From a virus (lineage: Duplodnaviria > Heunggongvirae > Uroviricota > Caudoviricetes): 41,245 bases of DNA. The number at the start of each line of letters is the position of its first letter. The first letter of the stretch is position 1. A program made the position numbers and the translations under genes. The stretch is from IMG/VR virus record IMGVR_UViG_2684622581_000003; one strand, written 5' to 3'. The notes below the pieces were generated by a model, which saw nothing but the letters and a program-made list of their open reading frames with translations, searched no databases and was not told the origin of the DNA. This document shows positions 568 to 41,245 of the stretch, in pieces.

Positions 568-582
568 TTAGTATAAAAAAGC
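568..582. repeat. att core copy, ybhB-proximal (attR by lambda convention, P-arm side)
   Basis: 15-bp sequence ttagtataaaaaagc, reverse complement of the lambda common core GCTTTTTTATACTAA, repeated exactly at 39901-39915. Confidence 0.85.
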
Positions 583-728
583 TGAACGTGAAACATTAAA
601 AACCATTAATATCAATGTGTTACAATACCTTTAGTCTAAAAAATAGACTGCGTAATGCTACAAAACACAACATATCCAGTCACTATGAATCAACCACTTA
701 GATGGTATTAGTGACCTGTAACAGAGCA
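583..728. promoter_or_regulatory. att P-arm-like region with arm-type Int binding motif
   Basis: Directly adjoins the core; contains cagtcactatg, which matches the lambda arm-type Int site consensus; AT-rich. Confidence 0.5.
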
Positions 729-768
729 TTAGCGCAAGGTGATTTTTGTCTTCTTGCGCTAATTTTTT
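729..768 (+). terminator. tI/sib-like hairpin terminator beyond the P arm
   Basis: Perfect 10-bp inverted repeat ttagcgcaag / cttgcgctaa (729-738 and 753-762) with 14-nt loop, followed by a T6 run; matches the position expected for the lambda sib/tI element relative to the att core. Confidence 0.6.
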
Positions 769-1070
769 GTCAACATACTGGGTTATCTGAATTTACAACT
801 ATGCTCAGCATCTCGATAAGCGCAGAGAAATGATGCAGTGGTGGGCGGATTGGCTTGATGGAGAGAAAAATAGCGCAACTTTTAGGCCACATCAATGAAA
901 TTGTTTTCCCATGCATGAGCAAAAATTAGAATAACATTGCATAGTCACAGTATCGATCATGATTCACAGCAATGATAGAATACAAATAAATTTAACATGT
1001 TTCCACCGAAACAATCACACATGTAGCATTCGTCTTTTTTTGATGTAATTAACATTAAATGGTATAACAT

Positions 1071-2858
1071 ATGGAACTGAAATACAGACCCGAAATTGAT
1101 GGGTTGAGAACATTAGCTGTTTTACCTGTTATCTTTTTTCATGCAGGTGTTCAATGGATTCCTGGCGGCTTTCTTGGAGTAGATGTTTTTTTTGTTATTA
1201 GTGGTTTTTTAATTACCAGCATTTTGCTGAAAGAATGCAGCAATAGAACATTTACATTCTCTGGGTTTTATGAGAGAAGGGTTCGTAGAATTGCGCCTGC
1301 ATTAATTCTAATGACATCAGTAACATTCATTATATCATTATTTATGATGGTTCCATATGACCTAAAGAATCTAGGTCAATCAGTTGTTGCAACAATTTTT
1401 TCAGCAAACAATATATTATTGTACTTAACGTCAGGATATTGGTCTACAGCATCTGAATTTAAACCATTGTATCACACATGGAGTCTTGCTGTAGAAGAAC
1501 AGTATTATCTTGTAGCCCCTGTAATAATATATATAATTTACTCAATAAATCATAATAAACTAATAAAGAATAGTTTTATGTTTTTACTGGTAATATCAAT
1601 TGCCAGTTTTTTATATGCAACAATTACAACAGTGCATAATATGGAGCTTTCATTTCTTATGCTCCCTTCAAGGGCGTGGGAGATTGCTCTTGGTGGGGTT
1701 GCCGCTATTGCGCACTATAAAATAAAAAGAAAAAGTAACATCTTAGCATACCTTGGTTTTTTATTGATAATATCAAGTTACTTCCTTGTGAATGGTAAAA
1801 AATCACACCCTGGATTTGAAACATTATTTCCAGTTCTTGGTGCATGTTTGTTTTTAATGCATTCAAATGCATCTAAAGGAATTGGAAAGATCATGTCAAT
1901 AAAACCAATTGTGTTATGTGGCATGATAAGTTATTCGCTATACCTTTGGCATCAACCTGTTTTTGCATTTATAAGATTAAACTCAAAATTTGAACCGTCA
2001 ACAACATATTTTATCGCATCCATTCCTTTAATTTTTATTATATCGTGGATGTCTTATGTTTTTGTAGAAAAACCATTCAGAAACAAGAGAAAAACATCTA
2101 CAAAGAAAATCTTATCATATACATTAGCATTTTCGTTGGTGTTATCAGCATCAGGAATTTTGATGCACAAAACATATGGATTGCAAAATATCAGGCCTGA
2201 TCTTGCATATGGAGGAAATCCACAGGAGTATGTGGATAGCCCGAAGAAATTAAAGAATATTGAGTTCTCAGACTATGGAAAGAAAATATTAATCATGGGT
2301 AACTCATATGCGAGAGATTTAATTAATGCAATATCTACAAAGATTAAAACAAATGATCTTAATATTGTATATTTTGAGGGTGGATGTGATTGGTCAATAG
2401 ATAATAAAAATAAATTAGATTACTACTTGAATGACTCAGACATTATTTTATATTCGGAGAATTGGGGTGCAGGCGACTATAATAATAACGTTGAAAAGTT
2501 AAAACACTGTTACGATTACATAAAGTCAAAAACAACTGCAAAAATGTACTTGATTGGCACAAAAAACTTCGGGTATAACAATAACTTTGCTGTTAACCTG
2601 TCTCTTAATGACAGAGTTTTAGCAAAAACATACCCGCTATCAAGATATATAGAGTTTAACAATAAGGCGAAAATGATTTTTGGCGATGACTACATAGATT
2701 TGTTTGACCTTATAAAAGACAACAATGGAATGGTTAGAGTTTTTGATGAGAATGGCAAATTTTTATCATATGATGCAAACCATCTAACGAAATATGGAGC
2801 AAGTTACATTGGAGAAGTCTTAGACAAAAAAACAGACTTACTTCAATCTTTGAAATAA
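1071..2858 (+). CDS. Membrane acyltransferase, acyltransferase-3 family with C-terminal extension (OafA/Oac-like O-antigen acyltransferase), probable lysogenic conversion gene
   Basis: 595-aa ORF with many hydrophobic segments in the N-terminal two thirds and a soluble C-terminal region; strongly AT-rich compared with neighbours; sits between the att site and the tailspike where P22-like phages carry O-antigen modification genes. Confidence 0.8.
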   Translation: MELKYRPEIDGLRTLAVLPVIFFHAGVQWIPGGFLGVDVFFVISGFLITSILLKECSNRTFTFSGFYERRVRRIAPALILMTSVTFIISLFMMVPYDLKNLGQSVVATIFSANNILLYLTSGYWSTASEFKPLYHTWSLAVEEQYYLVAPVIIYIIYSINHNKLIKNSFMFLLVISIASFLYATITTVHNMELSFLMLPSRAWEIALGGVAAIAHYKIKRKSNILAYLGFLLIISSYFLVNGKKSHPGFETLFPVLGACLFLMHSNASKGIGKIMSIKPIVLCGMISYSLYLWHQPVFAFIRLNSKFEPSTTYFIASIPLIFIISWMSYVFVEKPFRNKRKTSTKKILSYTLAFSLVLSASGILMHKTYGLQNIRPDLAYGGNPQEYVDSPKKLKNIEFSDYGKKILIMGNSYARDLINAISTKIKTNDLNIVYFEGGCDWSIDNKNKLDYYLNDSDIILYSENWGAGDYNNNVEKLKHCYDYIKSKTTAKMYLIGTKNFGYNNNFAVNLSLNDRVLAKTYPLSRYIEFNNKAKMIFGDDYIDLFDLIKDNNGMVRVFDENGKFLSYDANHLTKYGASYIGEVLDKKTDLLQSLK

Positions 2859-2892
2859 AATATATAATTTATTAGTCGCTCCCCAAAAAAAT

Positions 2893-2919
2893 ATACCACC
2901 TCTTATGTTGAGGTGGTAT
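2893..2919 (-). terminator. Hairpin terminator between the convergent acyltransferase and tailspike genes
   Basis: 10-bp stem ataccacctc / gaggtggtat with 7-nt loop; on the minus-strand transcript it is followed by a U-run (plus-strand aaaaaaa at 2885-2891). Confidence 0.6.
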
Positions 2920-2950
2920 ATAGATAATAACTATAGACTATTGCGTTTGT

Positions 2951-5125
2951 TTATTTCTGCATCCTTTTTATCTCTCTACGCATATATGCAGCCTCAAGAC
3001 AAAGTATTTCTTCGTAGCGTACAGTGTAACCTGAGTGAGCATCACGTGCCTCCTGAAGCATTACCTGAGTACCATCTTCTAAAATATCGTAAACAGCTTC
3101 TGTTGCTGGGGTATTGTCATAACATAGTATGCCATATTCGAATGGATCAACCCCATGTGATTCAAAAGCTGTCTTGATGTCTTGGGCTATGACCCCAATA
3201 TGTCTCCGGGCTTTACTACCTTTTTCTGCCACGCTTGCCTTTAATTTATATGATACATACTGAACGTCACCCCAGGCGTCGAGAACAGCATCAGGTATTT
3301 GTGACTCTTCTGTTTTTGAGTTTCTGTCTGACGTGACCTGAAAAGCTGTTTGTGTATACCCACCTGACCATGCATATGCTGACGTTCCACATGTTTGAGC
3401 GTTCTGCCGACCAGGCCTAACATAATCTACGCCCCACACGAGAACCGTTGAGGTACCGATATTCCAGTATGCTATATTAGATGTACTATCAACTATTTGT
3501 TGTTGCTGATATTCTCCATTTTTTGTCCGGTATGTTGTTGTTTGAAAGGCTCTAGGCAGAAACTGTAAACCATTAGTGCTAAGGTTTCTTATAGAGTTTT
3601 TAATGTCTGGGCTATTTCCGTCTTGTGTTCTTGCTATAGTCATTCCATCTGAGCAAGGTGGATGTCCATATTTAAGACGAAGATTTTCTATTACGGTAAG
3701 TGATTCTGAGCGATTGGTAACATCACCGGATTTTAGTAAGTACCATCCTGAAGAAGAGCTATTGTGTTCTACAATATTCTTAAACGTAAATTTAGGATCG
3801 GTATAATTCTCTGCATATTGCGGCTGATCCATTAAAACCAATCCTTTAAATTCTGAATCAGAGCGAGAGTTATTAATGTGCATCCCATCAAAAGTTATGT
3901 TGTCAGATTGTGTATTCTCTGTGCCATCTGTTCTTAAGTACAGAAAATTTCCCCCTTTGAAATACTCAAACCAACCATCAATAACTTTGAAATTAAAGAA
4001 CTGCCTTAGTCTAAAAAATGCACCACCAAAAACCTCACCTTTCTCAATCCATGGATTGTTGATGGTAAAATTAAATCCACCTGTTATATCGAAGTAAATT
4101 CTTGCTCTACAGTTTTCGAATATTGGGTTATCCATAACATTGAGATTGAATGCTGCAAAGTTATTTGCACCAGACTTATTCGTAGTAAGAATATATCCTG
4201 AATCGTTCACAGATTTAAATTTAGGGTAATAATGATATACTGCAATCCATGAAGCATTCCATATAGTATGGAATGCTTCCCATGAGCAGTTATATGTTGC
4301 AAAGTTAGCCACCCACTCACCATCATCAGCCTCCATGAACACTGATTTCAGATCAGATACTCCATTACCAATAAACAGTATGTTTTCAAAAAGACATCTC
4401 TCAAATTTGAACATGCCTGGTTGAGTGAACATTGCATAGTTTCCTGATGCTTTGATGGTGGCCCTTCCATTTGGGCATACGATGCTAAAGACTTTACCTG
4501 CCGATGTAGCTATTGGCTTAGATGTCACGTAGACAAATCCAGCAGGAATTAACAATCCAGCATTAGCATTAAGCACAGAAATAACTTTGTCATCCACCTC
4601 TGGATTAGCTAAGCCACTTATTGCCCCTAAATCTTGTATGGATAGCAGGTCAGAATTTTTATCATGCTGAGTCCTTCTTATTGCATCAAAAAAAGGCTGT
4701 TTAACGCCAATTAACGCATCACCTTTACTTTCATCATCTAAATATTTACCCGTTTGAGCAAGCTGATTAACGATGTCAATACTGAATTGGTCGGGGTCAT
4801 ATTTCAGTACATTAGGGAAATAGAACTGCTGAGCACCGTACGCATCATAAACAGCCATAGAATGGCCCTGTACAGTAACGAATTTGGCAATCTGTCCGTT
4901 ATATACAGGATAACCAGCAGCGTTAATGATGATTGGTTGCGAAACAGGAACGTGAGAGCCGTCTTCGTTCTCCACATAAACCTGAATCTGGTTTTCAGGA
5001 TTTACCGGGTTAGTGTCAATTTTTCCTATATAAATTTTGCCATTGGCTACCGCTTTAAAAGAACGAGCCATAGTGAAGAGTTGCGAAGGCATGCTTACCA
5101 CAACATTTGCGGTGATATCTGACAT
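2951..5125 (-). CDS. Tailspike protein: P22-type head-binding N-terminal domain, divergent central receptor-binding domain, C-terminal intramolecular-chaperone (peptidase S74-like) domain
   Basis: N-terminus [11 protein letters not shown]...[15 protein letters not shown]...[13 protein letters not shown]...VLKYDPDQF matches the P22 gp9 head-binding domain; C-terminus [31 protein letters not shown] resembles the auto-cleaving chaperone domain of endosialidase-type fibers. Start placed at the internal Met that aligns with P22 gp9; the ORF-track start is 5173. Confidence 0.85.
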
Positions 5126-5246
5126 TTCATTACTCCAAACGAATGATATGATGCAACCATGATGTGATTGCATACCGAAATGGTACTATTGAGTATTTAT
5201 CCAGTAGGTTACGATGCCATTCCACCCAACTGGTGAGGCATCAAGG

Positions 5247-5507
5247 ATGTACAGCAAATACGACGAGGCGCAGTTTCACTTGAGACTTCCGCATGAACTC
5301 CACGAGAAAATTAAACAGCGCGCGAAGATGAATAACAGGTCGCTGAACTCTGAGATAATTGCAGCGATTGAAGAATCATTGACTAAACAAAGCTCTGCAT
5401 CAGTTTACATTGACGATGCAGAGCGTATGGCAGAACAACAATCTGATATGGTTAAGAAAATTGTCTTTGATACGCTCAAGGAGCTATATAAAAAAGACAG
5501 CAACTAA
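5247..5507 (+). CDS. mnt: Mnt-like ribbon-helix-helix repressor (immI-type)
   Basis: Resembles P22 Mnt (RLPHELHEKIKQRAKMNNRSLNSEIIAAIEESL ... NDAERMAEQQSDMVKKIVFDTLKELYKK); transcribed opposite to the late operon as in P22; start chosen at an internal Met, with 5214 as an alternative. Confidence 0.7.
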   Translation: MYSKYDEAQFHLRLPHELHEKIKQRAKMNNRSLNSEIIAAIEESLTKQSSASVYIDDAERMAEQQSDMVKKIVFDTLKELYKKDSN

Positions 5508-5596: not shown

Positions 5597-7594
5597 CTAT
5601 TCTGACAACGCATCAGACTTAGCCCCCTGCGTCAGAGCGTTAATTGCATTTTGTGCCTGCTGCATTGCTTTCTCAAAGGCTGTTGATCCGCGTGGGGTGT
5701 TTGCCATTCGGAGCATTGCATTTCTGAATGGCTCGCTCTCATAGGCGCGAGTAAGAAGTCCGTAGCTTACTGCTGCGCCAGTTGTCGCCGGGTTCATTGC
5801 CGTCCCATACCCAATAATGAACGGGATAGTTTGCTGTCCTGTGGGTGTTGTTACTGCCGCTTTTGCAGCCTGCTGCGTGGATTGCAGGTAGTTTTTCAAT
5901 CCTTTCAGATAAGCAGCGTCCTGCCCCTTAAATGTGATGCCAGTCTGGTTTTGCAGGATGTTAAGCTGCCGAAGGAACTGGTCAGGGGATCCGCCAGATT
6001 TCTCCATCGCCTTTCCAATGATGCCATTGCGCATTTGCGCCCTGCCAACACGACCAACTGAGTTATACAGCGTCTTAATTTCAGATTTGTTCTTGCTGAA
6101 TAGCATGTTGTTGACAACTTCCGGCGTCAGATCGCCTTTCATGAGAACATTCTTCAGCCTGGTATTCTTTAGTTTCGCTGCTTCGTCAGCGTAGACGGCA
6201 TTGGCCTGCTGATATTTACGGAGAGTATCGTTGCCAAGATTCTGACCAATGGCACCATTGATATCGTCTGTCATCGCCTTGTAAACGCGCTGAATGGCGG
6301 CATCGGAACGGTTTGGTAACACTGGTCGCTCACCCTTCACGTCCATTCTGAACTGGCTGCGCAGGTCGCTTAATTGCTTCAAATCCAGATTTACCGGACC
6401 ATCAGGACCAGCATTGCGAACAAGCTCATCACGATATGACTGAAGTTTTGAAATAGTCTCGTTATCAGCAACCTTACCAAGCTTCTGCAGGTTAGATATT
6501 TCTGTATCAATCTGCTGAATTGCTCGTGCAGGCTGAATGTTTACTCCAGCCATAGCATTCTGAACCTGCTCCAGTCGATTACCGGCGGCACGACGAATTC
6601 CTGATGTTTTCGCTTTAAGGCTGTCAATAACAACAGCTGGATCATACTCACCGAATTTATCAGCAAATCTCTGCACCAACTGGCTTCTCGCTTCCTGTTG
6701 CGTTGCTCTCATTCCGCTTGTGCCAGCCAGAGGGATATTTTCTGCTGTAGTCTGCGCCATTTTTCCGACGCGTGAAGTTGGTTGTAACAGGTCTGTGGTG
6801 TGCAGAGGAACTCCTTCACGCTCTGCAAATCTGATAGCCTGCTGCGCTTCTGGCGCAATAGCACCACGTACGCCACGATAAGCAGCACCTAATCCACGTC
6901 CGGCAGCGTTAATAGCACCGCCAGCCAGCACACCAACGCCTAAATCGGTGGCGAGTGCTTCCGCATCATCTTTCGCACTATTTGCAGCAAGTGATCCAAC
7001 TGCGTTTTCAGCGAGAAGGCGAGTTGCACCCTGAGCAATTCGACCAGCAAGTGTTGGTGCCTGTGTTGCCGCTCTCTCAACGCCAGCAGGAGTGAGGTAA
7101 GGCAATGCTTCAGCAAATACCCTTCCCTCTGTCGTTTGTGGAGTCAGCGCGCCTTGCTGAAGGCCAAAGTCCTGCTCTAATCCCTGCGTTGTTACTCGTG
7201 GCGCTGGGTGATATGTACCATCGCCAATGCCGAGTTTACCGCCAGCCCAAGCCGCCGCGCTTGTTACAGCATCTGCAACTGATGCAGGTATGTTTGCCAC
7301 GTTCACGCCAGCCTGCACCAGTCCGCGACCAGTCTCTTTTACTGCTTCGCCAAGATCAGACATAAATCCACTTTGCTGTGGTTGTTGCTGTGCTTCTGGT
7401 TGTTGTGTCTCCACTGGCTGCACAGATGGCAATGGATAGGCAGCATAGAAAGCTTGCTTAGCCTGCTCTGCATTTTCTCCGGCTTGCGGGGCCACGACTT
7501 CATTGAAGTATTGCTCCTGAGCCTGCGCTTTTTGTTCTGGTGCTAACGCCTGATACTGTGGAGAGGCGATAACATCTTTCCATGCTTTAGCCAT
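5597..7594 (-). CDS. Ejection (internal virion) protein, P22 gp16-like
   Basis: 665-aa ORF in the P22 gp16 position at the end of the gp7-gp20-gp16 series; Ala/Gln/Gly-rich composition typical of ejection proteins. Confidence 0.7.
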   Translation of the reverse strand: MAKAWKDVIASPQYQALAPEQKAQAQEQYFNEVVAPQAGENAEQAKQAFYAAYPLPSVQPVETQQPEAQQQPQQSGFMSDLGEAVKETGRGLVQAGVNVANIPASVADAVTSAAAWAGGKLGIGDGTYHPAPRVTTQGLEQDFGLQQGALTPQTTEGRVFAEALPYLTPAGVERAATQAPTLAGRIAQGATRLLAENAVGSLAANSAKDDAEALATDLGVGVLAGGAINAAGRGLGAAYRGVRGAIAPEAQQAIRFAEREGVPLHTTDLLQPTSRVGKMAQTTAENIPLAGTSGMRATQQEARSQLVQRFADKFGEYDPAVVIDSLKAKTSGIRRAAGNRLEQVQNAMAGVNIQPARAIQQIDTEISNLQKLGKVADNETISKLQSYRDELVRNAGPDGPVNLDLKQLSDLRSQFRMDVKGERPVLPNRSDAAIQRVYKAMTDDINGAIGQNLGNDTLRKYQQANAVYADEAAKLKNTRLKNVLMKGDLTPEVVNNMLFSKNKSEIKTLYNSVGRVGRAQMRNGIIGKAMEKSGGSPDQFLRQLNILQNQTGITFKGQDAAYLKGLKNYLQSTQQAAKAAVTTPTGQQTIPFIIGYGTAMNPATTGAAVSYGLLTRAYESEPFRNAMLRMANTPRGSTAFEKAMQQAQNAINALTQGAKSDALSE

Positions 7595-38560: not shown

Positions 38561-38779
38561 ATGTACTTGACACTTCAGGAGTGGAACGCACGCCAGCGAC
38601 GCCCAAGAAGCCTTGAAACAGTTCGTCGATGGGTACGCGAGTGCAGGATATTTCCTCCTCCGGTTAAGGATGGAAGAGAGTATCTGTTCCACGAATCAGC
38701 GGTAAAGGTTGACTTAAATCGACCAGTAACAGGTAGCCTTTTGAAGAGGATCAGAAATGGGAAGAAGGCGAAGTCATGA
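38561..38779 (+). CDS. xis: Excisionase, lambda Xis
   Basis: 72-aa ORF matching lambda Xis (MYLTLQEWNARQRRPRSLETVRRWVRECRIFPPPVKDGREYLFHESAVKVDLNRP...). Confidence 0.95.
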   Translation: MYLTLQEWNARQRRPRSLETVRRWVRECRIFPPPVKDGREYLFHESAVKVDLNRPVTGSLLKRIRNGKKAKS

Positions 38780-39827
38780 GCGCCGGGATTTACCCCCTAA
38801 CCTTTATATAAGAAACAATGGATATTACTGCTACAGGGACCCAAGGACGGGTAAAGAGTTTGGATTAGGCAGAGACAGGCGAATCGCAATCACTGAAGCT
38901 ATACAGGCCAACATTGAGTTATTTTCAGGACACAAACACAAGCCTCTGACAGCGAGAATCAACAGTGATAATTCCGTTACGTTACATTCATGGCTTGATC
39001 GCTACGAAAAAATCCTGGCCAGCAGAGGAATCAAGCAGAAGACACTCATAAATTACATGAGCAAAATTAAAGCAATAAGGAGGGGTCTGCCTGATGCTCC
39101 ACTTGAAGACATCACCACAAAAGAAATTGCGGCAATGCTCAATGGATACATAGACGAGGGCAAGGCGGCGTCAGCCAAGTTAATCAGATCAACACTGAGC
39201 GATGCATTCCGAGAGGCAATAGCTGAAGGCCATATAACAACAAACCCTGTCGCTGCCACTCGCGCAGCAAAATCAGAGGTAAGGAGATCAAGACTTACGG
39301 CTGACGAATACCTGAAAATTTATCAAGCAGCAGAATCATCACCATGTTGGCTCAGACTTGCAATGGAACTGGCTGTTGTTACCGGGCAACGAGTTGGTGA
39401 TTTATGCGAAATGAAGTGGTCTGATATCGTAGATGGATATCTTTATGTCGAGCAAAGCAAAACAGGCGTAAAAATTGCCATCCCAACAACATTACATGTT
39501 GATGCTCTCGGGATATCAATGAAGGAAACACTTGATAAATGCAAAGAGATTCTTGGCGGAGAAACCATAATTGCATCTACTCGTAGTGAACCGCTTTCAT
39601 CCGGCACAGTATCAAGGTATTTTATGCGCGCACGAAAAGCATCAGGTCTTTCCTTCGAAGGGGATCCGCCTACCTTTCACGAGTTGCGCAGTTTGTCTGC
39701 AAGACTCTATGAGAAGCAGATAAGCGATAAGTTTGCTCAACATCTTCTCGGGCATAAGTCGGACACCATGGCATCACAGTATCGTGATGACAGAGGCAGG
39801 GAGTGGGACAAAATTGAAATCAAATAA
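38757..39827 (+). CDS. int: Integrase, lambda Int (tyrosine recombinase)
   Basis: 356-aa ORF matching lambda Int along its length (MGRRRSHERRDLPPNLYIRNNGYYCYRDPRTGKEFGLGRDRRIAITEAIQAN...), overlapping xis as in lambda. Confidence 0.97.
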   Translation: MGRRRSHERRDLPPNLYIRNNGYYCYRDPRTGKEFGLGRDRRIAITEAIQANIELFSGHKHKPLTARINSDNSVTLHSWLDRYEKILASRGIKQKTLINYMSKIKAIRRGLPDAPLEDITTKEIAAMLNGYIDEGKAASAKLIRSTLSDAFREAIAEGHITTNPVAATRAAKSEVRRSRLTADEYLKIYQAAESSPCWLRLAMELAVVTGQRVGDLCEMKWSDIVDGYLYVEQSKTGVKIAIPTTLHVDALGISMKETLDKCKEILGGETIIASTRSEPLSSGTVSRYFMRARKASGLSFEGDPPTFHELRSLSARLYEKQISDKFAQHLLGHKSDTMASQYRDDRGREWDKIEIK

Positions 39828-39900
39828 TGATTTTATTTTGACTGATAGTGACCTGTTCGTTGCAACAAATTGATAAGCAATGCTTTTTTATAATGCCAAC
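39828..39900. promoter_or_regulatory. att P-prime arm (Int arm-type and IHF site region)
   Basis: Sequence between the int stop and the core is the reverse complement of the lambda P-prime arm as recalled (gtcactatcagtcaaaataaaatca ...). Confidence 0.7.
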
Positions 39901-39915
39901 TTAGTATAAAAAAGC
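39901..39915. repeat. att core copy, int-proximal (attL by lambda convention)
   Basis: ttagtataaaaaagc, identical to 568-582. Confidence 0.9.
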
Positions 39916-39961: not shown

Positions 39962-41245
39962 GTGAACACATTTTCAGTTTCCCGTCTGGCGCTGGCATTG
40001 GCTTTTGGCGTGACGCTGACCGCCTGTAGCTCAACCCCGCCCGATCAACGTCCTTCTGATCAAACCGCGCCTGGTACCTCTTCTCGCCCGATTCTGTCGG
40101 CAAAAGAAGCGCAGAATTTCGATGCTCAACACTATTTTGCATCCCTGACACCAGGTGCTGCAGCGTGGAATCCTTCCCCGATTACCCTGCCTGCGCAACC
40201 TGACTTTGTTGTCGGCCCGGCGGGCACTCAAGGTGTAACGCATACCACGATTCAGGCGGCGGTAGATGCGGCAATTATCAAGCGTACCAACAAGCGCCAG
40301 TATATTGCCGTGATGCCTGGTGAGTATCAGGGAACGGTATATGTCCCTGCCGCTCCGGGTGGAATTACTCTGTACGGTACAGGTGAAAAACCGATTGATG
40401 TGAAGATTGGGCTTTCCCTTGATGGTGGCATGAGCCCTGCCGACTGGCGTCACGACGTCAACCCGCGCGGCAAATATATGCCAGGTAAACCAGCGTGGTA
40501 TATGTACGATAGCTGCCAGAGCAAACGCAGCGACAGTATCGGTGTTCTCTGCTCTGCGGTCTTCTGGTCACAAAACAATGGCCTGCAACTGCAAAATCTG
40601 ACCATCGAAAACACGCTGGGCGATAGCGTAGATGCAGGTAACCATCCGGCGGTGGCACTGCGTACTGATGGTGACCAGGTACAGATTAACAACGTTAACA
40701 TTCTCGGTCGTCAGAACACCTTCTTTGTCACCAACAGCGGTGTGCAGAACCGTCTGGAAACCAACCGTCAGCCGCGTACGCTGGTGACCAACAGCTACAT
40801 TGAAGGGGATGTGGATATCGTTTCTGGTCGCGGCGCAGTGGTGTTCGATAACACCGAATTCCGCGTGGTGAACTCACGTACTCAGCAAGAAGCGTATGTG
40901 TTTGCACCGGCTACGCTGTCCAACATTTACTACGGTTTCCTCGCCGTAAACAGCCGTTTCAATGCTTTCGGTGATGGTGTGGCGCAACTGGGCCGCTCGC
41001 TGGATGTTGATGCCAATACCAACGGTCAGGTGGTGATCCGTGATAGCGCCATCAACGAAGGTTTTAACACGGCTAAACCGTGGGCCGATGCGGTGATCTC
41101 TAATCGTCCGTTTGCGGGTAATACCGGCAGCGTAGATGATAACGACGAAATACAGCGCAATCTGAATGACACTAACTACAACCGCATGTGGGAATACAAT
41201 AACCGCGGCGTGGGTAGTAAAGTGGTTGCAGAGGCGAAGAAGTAA
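39962..41245 (+). CDS. ybhC: YbhC, pectinesterase-like outer-membrane lipoprotein (host gene flanking attLambda on the gal side)
   Basis: 427-aa ORF with lipoprotein signal (LTACSS) recognised as E. coli YbhC; the first codon appears to be GTG. Confidence 0.9.
   Translation: MNTFSVSRLALALAFGVTLTACSSTPPDQRPSDQTAPGTSSRPILSAKEAQNFDAQHYFASLTPGAAAWNPSPITLPAQPDFVVGPAGTQGVTHTTIQAAVDAAIIKRTNKRQYIAVMPGEYQGTVYVPAAPGGITLYGTGEKPIDVKIGLSLDGGMSPADWRHDVNPRGKYMPGKPAWYMYDSCQSKRSDSIGVLCSAVFWSQNNGLQLQNLTIENTLGDSVDAGNHPAVALRTDGDQVQINNVNILGRQNTFFVTNSGVQNRLETNRQPRTLVTNSYIEGDVDIVSGRGAVVFDNTEFRVVNSRTQQEAYVFAPATLSNIYYGFLAVNSRFNAFGDGVAQLGRSLDVDANTNGQVVIRDSAINEGFNTAKPWADAVISNRPFAGNTGSVDDNDEIQRNLNDTNYNRMWEYNNRGVGSKVVAEAKK

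What the first reader, a model, noticed from the sequence alone, without database searches (positions are those of the whole stretch)
1071..2858. AT-rich O-antigen-type acyltransferase moron next to the tailspike gene
A 595-aa integral-membrane acyltransferase with very low GC sits between the att site and the tailspike, convergent with it and separated by a hairpin terminator. In P22-like phages this position carries serotype-converting genes (gtrABC, oac) that modify the receptor the tailspike recognises, so this is a likely lysogenic conversion gene that changes the host O-antigen and blocks re-adsorption.
Basis: partly seen in the sequence, partly recalled or inferred. Interest (0 to 1): 0.6.

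Follow-up and report, generated by a model that had tools for sequence, protein, structure and literature searches.

The report
Prophage O-antigen acyltransferase beside tailspike
This is an intact membrane-bound sugar acyltransferase carried as an extra gene at the end of a P22-like E. coli prophage, next to the tailspike, and it most likely modifies the cell-surface polysaccharide that such phages bind; this is a well-known arrangement and the finding is ordinary.

The parts
568..582 (-). Lambda-type att core (attR, on the bio/ybhB side). The second copy lies at 39901-39915.
   Evidence: Exact match to GCTTTTTTATACTAA on the - strand at both positions. ybhB is confirmed by NCBIfam equivalog PRK10257 at E 1e-103. 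A lambda-type integrase with Arm-DNA-bind_1 lies at 38757-39827.
789..929 (+). 3' remnant (about 45 codons plus stop) of an argW/IntS-type integrase, left upstream of the cargo slot.
   Evidence: 98% nt identical to the 3' end of the intact 393-aa integrase that precedes the same acyltransferase in L002-L011. It is annotated as an N-terminally truncated pseudogene in E. coli H1 and in other attLambda prophages.
930..1070 (+). Conserved upstream intergenic region, presumed to hold the gene's own promoter (not demonstrated).
   Evidence: Together with the integrase remnant (791-1070) it is 98.2-98.6% identical to L002-L011, and in the alignment it is visibly better conserved against H1 than the coding region, which is 82%. 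The only promoter-like hit is TTCACA-18-TAAATT at 963-992 (9 of 12 matches), and the scan as a whole is no better than shuffles. There is one GATC, at 955.
1071..2858 (+). AT3-SGNH acyltransferase gene, 595 aa.
1089..2057 (+). AT3 (Acyl_transf_3) transmembrane domain, residues 7-329. It contains R13, H24 (1140-1142), G32-G33-F34-L35-G36-V37-D38, the RxxR motif R70/R73 (1278-1289) and E142. E333 follows just after the domain.
2100..2171 (+). Extra transmembrane helix (residues 344-367). It follows a K/R-rich loop (residues 337-346) and would place the SGNH domain in the periplasm.
   Evidence: Helix 344-367 in the model, hydrophobic segment 346-366, and the sequence FRNKRKTSTKK before it. The topology itself is inferred from OafA/OafB (PMC7448272).
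2277..2825 (+). SGNH domain of the type fused to AT3 domains, residues 403-585. Catalytic triad: S412 (2304-2306, in a GNS block I), D568 (2772-2774) and H571 (2781-2783, in DANH block V).
2891..2921 (-). Hairpin between the convergent genes. It is an intrinsic terminator with a T-run for the tailspike transcript.
   Evidence: Terminator scan: 12 pairs, 5 of them G-C, a loop of 7, then TTTTTTGGGG on the - strand. Folding z-scores are -4.3 and -4.1.
2951..5125 (-). Tailspike, 724 aa counted from M17 of the ORF. It has a P22-type head-binding domain, a receptor-binding part, and a C-terminal Peptidase_S74 intramolecular chaperone.
   Evidence: Pfam Head_binding at E 1e-66 and Peptidase_S74 at E 1e-13. 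The 724-aa product is identical to WP_053265684.1. Residues 131-723 are 74% identical to the tail fibres of phages DS8 and HK2.

Best explanation
The gene is a lysogenic-conversion cargo gene (a moron) of an apparently complete P22-like prophage integrated at attLambda. It encodes a two-domain AT3-SGNH O-acyltransferase. By analogy with Salmonella OafA/OafB, the 10-helix AT3 domain takes an acyl group, most likely acetyl from cytoplasmic acetyl-CoA, across the inner membrane. An eleventh helix places the SGNH domain in the periplasm. That domain uses its Ser412-Asp568-His571 triad to put the acyl group on a sugar of the surface polysaccharide, most probably the O-antigen repeat unit. The modified polysaccharide would be a poorer substrate or receptor for tailspikes of this and related phages. 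That would protect the lysogen from superinfection, stop released virions from re-adsorbing to sibling cells, and change the cell's antigenicity. Shown here: the gene, its domains, its catalytic residues, its fold, its position, purifying selection, and the recurrence of this gene type in the same slot of other prophages. Inferred: the acyl donor, the acceptor, expression in the lysogen, and the effect on the phage.
Against: There is no direct evidence on the acceptor. The host's O-antigen type cannot be read from this window, and nothing was found on the receptor of the phages that share the tailspike's receptor-binding part. The nearly identical allele (593/595 aa) is paired with receptor-binding parts that are only 58-80% identical over the central part. 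The 82% allele is paired with an unrelated tailspike. So a one-to-one match between the modifier and the neighbouring tailspike is not demonstrated. No convincing promoter or Shine-Dalgarno sequence was found. DNA this AT-rich is often silenced by H-NS, which is my own knowledge and was not tested. In phage Kapi1, a gene in the same slot with acyltransferase homology did not change the LPS ladder when over-expressed (bioRxiv 10.1101/2021.04.09.439263), although SDS-PAGE is a poor detector of acetylation. The best NCBIfam hit is a succinyltransferase, SucT, far below its cut-off (126.8 bits against 1275), so the acyl group is open.
Confidence: 0.75

Rival explanations
1. The enzyme is the same, but the acceptor is another surface glycan (group 1/4 capsule, K antigen, enterobacterial common antigen, colanic acid or LPS core). 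The tailspike would recognise that glycan rather than the O-antigen.
For: The tailspike ends in a Peptidase_S74 chaperone domain, as capsule-degrading endosialidases do. Its receptor-binding part has no solved or characterised relative, so its substrate is unknown. AT3 enzymes modify many kinds of glycan (PMC9558356, listed). From my own knowledge, the P22-like prophage CUS-3 carries a capsule O-acetyltransferase, though of an unrelated family.
Confidence: 0.13
2. The gene is a silent or decaying passenger. It is horizontally acquired AT-rich DNA that is not expressed, or has no acceptor in this host, and so gives no phenotype.
For: GC is 32%. No recognisable strong promoter or Shine-Dalgarno sequence was found. 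Only 2 of 5426 complete E. coli genomes carry even an 82% nt homologue. Kapi1 gave a negative result for a gene in the same slot.
Against: The reading frame is intact and every catalytic residue is kept. dN/dS is 0.135. The cluster has 40 member sequences from E. coli and E. marmotae. The gene stays intact where the neighbouring tailspike is broken or the prophage is truncated, which is the pattern expected for a gene useful to the host.
Confidence: 0.08
3. The enzyme is a peptidoglycan O-acetyltransferase of the OatA type, changing lysozyme or endolysin sensitivity rather than phage adsorption.
For: OatA has the same AT3-SGNH architecture, and some database entries name homologues 'peptidoglycan/LPS O-acetylase OafA/YrhL'.
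Confidence: 0.03

Closest known systems
GtrC of Salmonella phage BTP1 (OafB-type, 'family II GtrC'); OafB SGNH-domain structure PDB 6SE1
   Different: Identity is only 31% (E 1e-80) with 71 gap positions, and the length is 595 aa against 640 aa. Block I reads GNS rather than GDS. There is no gtrA remnant upstream. The host is E. coli and the tailspike is unrelated. The acceptor sugar is unknown. Its nearer relatives (40-61%) are mostly unnamed proteins from metagenomes, with a few from diverse environmental and host-associated bacteria.
OafA of Salmonella Typhimurium (abequose O-acetyltransferase, O:5 factor)
   Same: It has the same AT3-SGNH architecture, and the residues found essential by mutagenesis are present here (PMC7448272).
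   Different: OafA is chromosomal, not phage-borne. I did not align its sequence directly; the mapping went through BTP1 GtrC. The Ser of OafA's essential S112-N113 loop appears to be Asn here (N113-N114, invariant in this clade), but the register is uncertain.
Oac of Shigella phage Sf6 and the OacB/C/D enzymes
   Same: They are phage-borne O-antigen O-acetyltransferases with an AT3 domain and an RxxR motif, placed next to int and the tailspike in a P22-like phage (placement is from my own knowledge and from statements in the Kapi1 preprint).
   Different: Those enzymes are AT3-only, about 330 aa, with no fused SGNH domain. An AT3-only 328-aa acyltransferase that fills this same slot in E. coli Ec40743 shows no significant similarity to this protein (best E 0.45).
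gtrABC glucosylation cassette of P22 and the Shigella Sf phages
   Same: It occupies the same genomic slot and has the same biological logic, modifying the receptor to achieve serotype conversion and exclusion.
   Different: The chemistry is different (glucosylation through bactoprenol-linked glucose) and it uses three genes. No GtrA, GtrB or glucosyltransferase is present here, since a single ORF fills the slot.

Membership tests
AT3-SGNH fused carbohydrate O-acyltransferases (OafA/OafB/OatA architecture) | N-terminal Acyl_transf_3 (PF01757) membrane domain | tested here: met
   E 2.3e-29, 102.9 bits against a cut-off of 31, covering 324 of 326 profile positions.
AT3-SGNH fused carbohydrate O-acyltransferases (OafA/OafB/OatA architecture) | C-terminal SGNH domain of the AT3-fused type (PF19040), joined by an extra transmembrane helix | tested here: met
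AT3-SGNH fused carbohydrate O-acyltransferases (OafA/OafB/OatA architecture) | Essential AT3 residues: TMH1 Arg and His, the GG-F/Y-xGV-D loop, RxxR, and Glu after TMH10 | tested here: met
   R13, H24, G32-D38, R70/R73 and E333 are present and at least 90% conserved or invariant in 74 homologues. They align with BTP1 GtrC. The list of essential residues comes from PMC7448272.
AT3-SGNH fused carbohydrate O-acyltransferases (OafA/OafB/OatA architecture) | SGNH catalytic triad Ser (block I), Asp and His (block V, DxxH) | tested here: met
   S412 in GNS, and D568 and H571 in DANH, are invariant in the family alignment. They align with S430, D618 and H621 of BTP1 GtrC.
AT3-SGNH fused carbohydrate O-acyltransferases (OafA/OafB/OatA architecture) | Acyl transfer to an extracytoplasmic carbohydrate | not testable with these tools
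   This needs biochemistry or glycan analysis.
OafB / family II GtrC orthologous group (Salmonella, rhamnose O-acetylation) | Close sequence relationship to OafB/GtrC-BTP1 | tested here: not met
   Identity to BTP1 GtrC is 31%. All 71 phage records that hit are below 60% identity. A single-sequence search of the PDB finds nothing, and only the family profile reaches 6SE1, at E 0.0011. The architecture is the same but this is a different clade.
Phage lysogenic-conversion (moron) genes at the att/int-tailspike junction of P22-like phages | Lies between att/int and the tailspike, transcribed against the late operon, with deviant base composition | tested here: met
   The same slot holds other cargo in other prophages.
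Phage lysogenic-conversion (moron) genes at the att/int-tailspike junction of P22-like phages | Expressed from the prophage and changes the host surface or phage adsorption | not testable with these tools
   The promoter scan was uninformative: 12 sites found against 12.8 expected.
Dam/OxyR phase-variable gtr-type operons | Paired GATC sites within OxyR half-sites upstream (feature recalled from my own knowledge) | tested here: not met
   There is only one GATC (position 955) in 578-1100. BTP1 gtrC is likewise not phase-variable (PMC4413052).
gtrABC glucosylation cassette | GtrA flippase, GtrB bactoprenol glucosyltransferase and a serotype-specific GtrC glucosyltransferase | tested here: not met
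   A single ORF of at least 100 aa fills the slot and it is an acyltransferase.

The most novel reading that the evidence does not exclude
This protein belongs to a distinct AT3-SGNH clade carried by phages in several bacterial genera, no more than about 31% identical to OafA/OafB-type enzymes. Members sit at the ends of temperate podovirus-like prophages, one of them in Acinetobacter. The cassette spreads between prophages largely independently of the neighbouring tailspike: it is 99.6% nt identical here and in argW-site prophages, while the adjacent receptor-binding region is only 71% identical. If so, it may add a not yet described acyl modification to an E. coli O-antigen and act as a general anti-phage surface shield, rather than as a partner matched to its own tailspike.
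Probability: 0.3. Interest if true: 0.35.

Novelty: new member of a known kind. Interest (0 to 1): 0.2.

Why it matters
If the gene is active, it changes the chemistry of the lysogen's main surface antigen. That would alter its apparent serotype, its susceptibility to phages that bind the same polysaccharide (relevant to phage therapy and typing), and possibly antibody recognition. This kind of phage-host trade-off is already well documented in Salmonella and Shigella. For E. coli this particular allele is rare, with no close copy in 5426 complete genomes, and no experimental work on it turned up here. The practical value would be a new, testable O-antigen modification, not a new principle.

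Tried and rejected
2. I tried to infer the acceptor from the tailspike. Its receptor-binding part has no solved relative. It has no match in 5426 complete E. coli genomes, even in the sensitive mode. Its only relatives among sequenced phages are the tail fibres of DS8 and HK2, and the literature held here says nothing about their receptors. The host serotype cannot be read from the window.
3. The promoter scan was no better than shuffled sequence, so no promoter is claimed.
4. I looked for a gtr-type Dam/OxyR phase-variation signature and found only one GATC upstream, so I rejected it.
5. I first took P0001 to be the identical protein. It differs from the window protein at 2 residues (Y402N, K478R). 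The exact match is P0126, WP_053265683.1.
6. The NCBIfam hit to the succinyltransferase SucT is far below its cut-off and covers only the AT3 domain, so I did not use it to name the acyl group.
7. The idea that the integrase remnant marks a recent event special to this window is rejected. The same remnant is annotated in other attLambda P22-like prophages that carry different cargo.

Full report
**What is in the sequence.**
Its GC content is 31.9% (GC3 27.7%). The whole window is 46.9% GC and the rest of the prophage 48.2%.

The window is an E. coli chromosomal segment running from ybhB (1-477; NCBIfam equivalog, E 1e-103) to ybhC (39962-41245). A 39.3-kb prophage sits between two copies of the lambda att core GCTTTTTTATACTAA, at 568-582 and 39901-39915. 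The prophage has P22-type genes for the coat, portal, stabilisation protein, gp7 and the injectosome translocase. It also has a large terminase, an S24/HTH repressor and, at the far end, a lambda-type integrase.

So the acyltransferase lies between attR and the tailspike. The tailspike runs 2951-5125 on the - strand, 724 aa from the likely start at M17. It has Head_binding and Peptidase_S74 domains and is convergent with the acyltransferase.

The 92-nt spacer between the two genes holds a hairpin with a 12-bp stem at 2891-2921. It folds far better than shuffled sequence (z = -4.3, 0 of 200 shuffles). Its T-run is on the - strand only. It is therefore a canonical terminator for the tailspike transcript and only a hairpin for the acyltransferase transcript.

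**What the protein is.**
- **Domains.** Pfam gives Acyl_transf_3 over residues 7-329 (E 2e-29, nearly the whole profile) and the AT3-fused SGNH family PF19040 over 403-585 (E 1e-11). Both are above the curated cut-offs. PHROG 6705, "O-antigen acetylase", category moron, matches from residue 3 to 588 at E 1e-134.
- **Conserved residues.** In an alignment with 73 homologues the invariant or nearly invariant positions include R13, H24, G32-G33-F34-L35-G36-V37-D38, R70/R72/R73, E142, E333, S412, D568 and H571. Aligned with BTP1 GtrC, they fall on R14, H25, G33-D39, R71/R74, S430, D618 and H621. The equivalent residues of Salmonella OafA (R14, H25, D39, R69, R72, E325, S412, D587, H590) lose activity when mutated (PMC7448272).
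- **Minor differences.** Block I reads GNS rather than GDS. The Ser-Asn pair in the TMH3-4 loop appears as N113-N114, although I did not align OafA itself.
- **Structure.** An AlphaFold2 model built on the alignment is confident throughout (mean pLDDT 93.9, pTM 0.91). It shows a helical bundle over residues 7-337, a further long helix at 344-367 after the K/R-rich stretch FRNKRKTSTKK, and then an alpha/beta domain.

**Context and relatives.**
The protein is identical to WP_053265683.1, and the tailspike to WP_053265684.1. Both are therefore already in RefSeq, under generic names.

The 90% cluster has 40 member sequences from E. coli and E. marmotae. At least seven members have accession numbers adjacent to those of members of the tailspike cluster.

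In ten other contigs, a protein differing at 2 of 595 residues sits in a P22-like prophage at a different site. That site is next to the fadJ/fadI, fadL, mlaA and FocA-family (Form_Nir_trans) genes. In one E. coli genome the matching integrase is annotated intS, and the comparable phage Kapi1 integrates into tRNA argW. There the order is an intact 393-aa P4-type integrase, then the acyltransferase, then the convergent tailspike.

The window keeps only the last 45 or so codons of that integrase (789-929), at 98% identity. The same remnant is annotated in other attLambda P22-like prophages. This prophage lineage therefore changed its integration module but kept the old integrase tail and the cargo slot.

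In those other prophages the slot holds a 328-aa AT3-only acyltransferase, a gtrA remnant or an EpsG-family protein, each paired with a different tailspike.

Only 2 of 5426 complete E. coli genomes carry a homologue detectable by megablast (82% nt identity). In strain H1 it is paired with a tailspike that is unrelated beyond the head-binding domain.

Sequenced phages carry only distant relatives, at about 31% identity: BTP1, g341c, SPN9TCW, MG40 and several Pseudomonas phages. Almost all are annotated as O-antigen or LPS acetylases.

Closer relatives at 47-50% identity are also at prophage ends. One lies next to a Head_binding tailspike in another P22-like element. Others follow an integrase or face the lysis and tail genes in prophages with a T7-type terminase, one of them in Acinetobacter sp. 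Ver3.

**Evidence that the gene is kept for a function.**
Against the 82% allele, dN/dS is 0.135 and every key residue is retained.

Between the window and the argW-site prophages the gene is 99.6-99.7% nt identical. The flanks are 94-98% identical, and the tailspike's receptor-binding region is only about 71% nt identical (58-80% aa over the central part). This points to recent exchange of the cassette.

In the three argW-site prophages I checked (L002, L005, L011) the tailspike carries a TGG-to-TGA nonsense codon at position 289. In two others (L004, L009) the prophage is cut down by IS elements. The acyltransferase is intact in all of them. That is the pattern expected of a gene that benefits the host.

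**Mechanism proposed.**
The mechanism rests on analogy with OafA/OafB (PMC7448272) and on the AT3 literature listed.
1. The AT3 domain passes an acyl group, probably acetyl from acetyl-CoA, across the inner membrane.
2. Helix 344-367 puts the SGNH domain in the periplasm.
3. The Ser412-Asp568-His571 triad transfers the acyl group to a sugar of the surface polysaccharide.

The biological role follows the BTP1 precedent, which has the same gene order. GtrC-BTP1 alone prevents cleavage of the O-antigen by the BTP1 tailspike, blocks infection by BTP1 and P22, and reduces re-adsorption (PMC4413052).

I give this reading 0.75. Inside it, O-antigen is the favoured acceptor but is not shown.

**Caveats and rivals.**
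- **Unknown acceptor and host type.** The acceptor, the acyl group and the host O-type are all unknown.
- **Tailspike gives no clue.** Its receptor-binding part is shared with tail fibres of two virulent phages from other families. DS8 is a Deseoctovirus isolated on S. flexneri; it is 74% identical to the window type and 90.6% to the argW type. HK2 is an N4-like Gamaleyavirus. Nothing about their receptors is recorded in the library searched.
- **Another glycan is possible.** The tailspike's S74 chaperone domain is also typical of capsule depolymerases, so a capsule or another glycan remains possible (0.13).
- **Expression is unproven.** The promoter scan was at chance level and there is no obvious Shine-Dalgarno sequence. 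A gene in the same slot of phage Kapi1, with acyltransferase homology, did not alter the LPS ladder when over-expressed. A silent passenger therefore keeps 0.08.
- **Peptidoglycan is unlikely.** A peptidoglycan role gets 0.03, for the reasons given under fold matches and the position of the gene.
- **Pairing with the tailspike.** Pairing of one allele with diverged receptor-binding domains, and of the 82% allele with an unrelated tailspike, means a strict modifier-tailspike match is not demonstrated.

**Verdict.**
This is a rare E. coli/E. marmotae allele, not an orthologue of OafB or Oac and with no experimental work found on it here. It belongs to a well-understood class and sits in a well-known prophage slot. 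I class it as a new member of a known kind, of low general interest (0.2).

Noticed in passing
window 789-929 (+): This is the 3' remnant (about 45 codons) of a P4/IntS-type integrase, 98% identical to the end of the intact integrase that precedes the same acyltransferase in argW-site prophages. The same remnant is annotated in other attLambda P22-like prophages. The lineage seems to have replaced its integration module with lambda int/att while keeping the old integrase tail and the cargo slot.
   Followed up: partly
window 568-785 and 38757-39915: This is a hybrid prophage. It has P22-type virion genes but a lambda-type integrase (with the Arm-DNA-bind_1 domain) and exact lambda att cores at both ends. 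The sequence next to the ybhB-side core looks like the lambda attP P arm; I recognised that from memory and did not test it with a tool.
   Followed up: partly
window 2951-4750 (-); L019 1099-3288; L020 1000-3285: The tailspike's receptor-binding part and its S74 chaperone (aa 131-723) are shared with tail fibres of virulent phages from two other families. These are Shigella phage DS8 (Deseoctovirus, 74%) and Escherichia phage HK2 (N4-like Gamaleyavirus, 73.5%). No complete E. coli genome of 5426 has this region, even in the sensitive nucleotide search.
   Followed up: partly
L002 11880-14054, L005 8295-10469, L011 3165-5339: In argW-site relatives the tailspike carries a TGG-to-TGA nonsense codon at position 289, where the window has Trp. 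Its receptor-binding part is 90.6% identical to DS8 but only 58-80% identical to the window's over the central part. The adjacent acyltransferase is intact and 99.6% nt identical.
   Followed up: yes
L004 13188-14667; L009 11881-13322: In these two E. coli assemblies the prophage is truncated by IS/transposase insertions inside or just beyond the tailspike. The integrase and the acyltransferase are retained intact, which suggests the cargo gene has been domesticated by the host.
   Followed up: no
L021 1585-2571; L022 3530-3592; L023 1550-2668: The slot between the integrase remnant and the tailspike in other E. coli attLambda P22-like prophages holds alternative cargo. Ec40743 has a 328-aa AT3-only acyltransferase (29.8% GC, no significant similarity to this protein). 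Strain 3CM has a gtrA fragment. VTB96777v has an EpsG-family membrane protein. Each is paired with a different tailspike.
   Followed up: partly
L015 6181-13418; L013 8001-13550: Homologues at 47-50% identity sit at the ends of prophages with a T7-type terminase. In Acinetobacter sp. Ver3 (L015) the order is integrase, acyltransferase, then convergent lysis genes and an 847-aa protein with no Pfam match. In L013, a metagenomic contig of unknown host, the gene faces the same kind of lysis and tail genes, including a 778-aa protein.
   Followed up: no
window 5214-5507 (+): This is a 97-aa Mnt-like repressor (Arc domain plus the Mnt C-terminal domain). It is the only ORF of 100 aa or less found between the tailspike and the gp16-like gene, so this prophage appears to lack the P22 immI antirepressor gene. 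By contrast, strain 3CM has P22AR and two Arc-family genes at that place.
   Followed up: no
window 5126-5173 (-): The mechanical tailspike ORF starts 16 codons upstream of the conserved [10 protein letters not shown] start. The 724-aa form from M17 is the one recorded in RefSeq (WP_053265684.1).
   Followed up: yes
window 5597-7594 (-): This 665-aa protein sits in the position of P22 gp16, and E. coli H1 annotates the homologue as a 'DNA transfer protein'. It gave no Pfam match at E 1e-5. The argW-site relatives instead have a 797-aa protein with SLT and Phage_P22_gp16 domains at that position.
   Followed up: no
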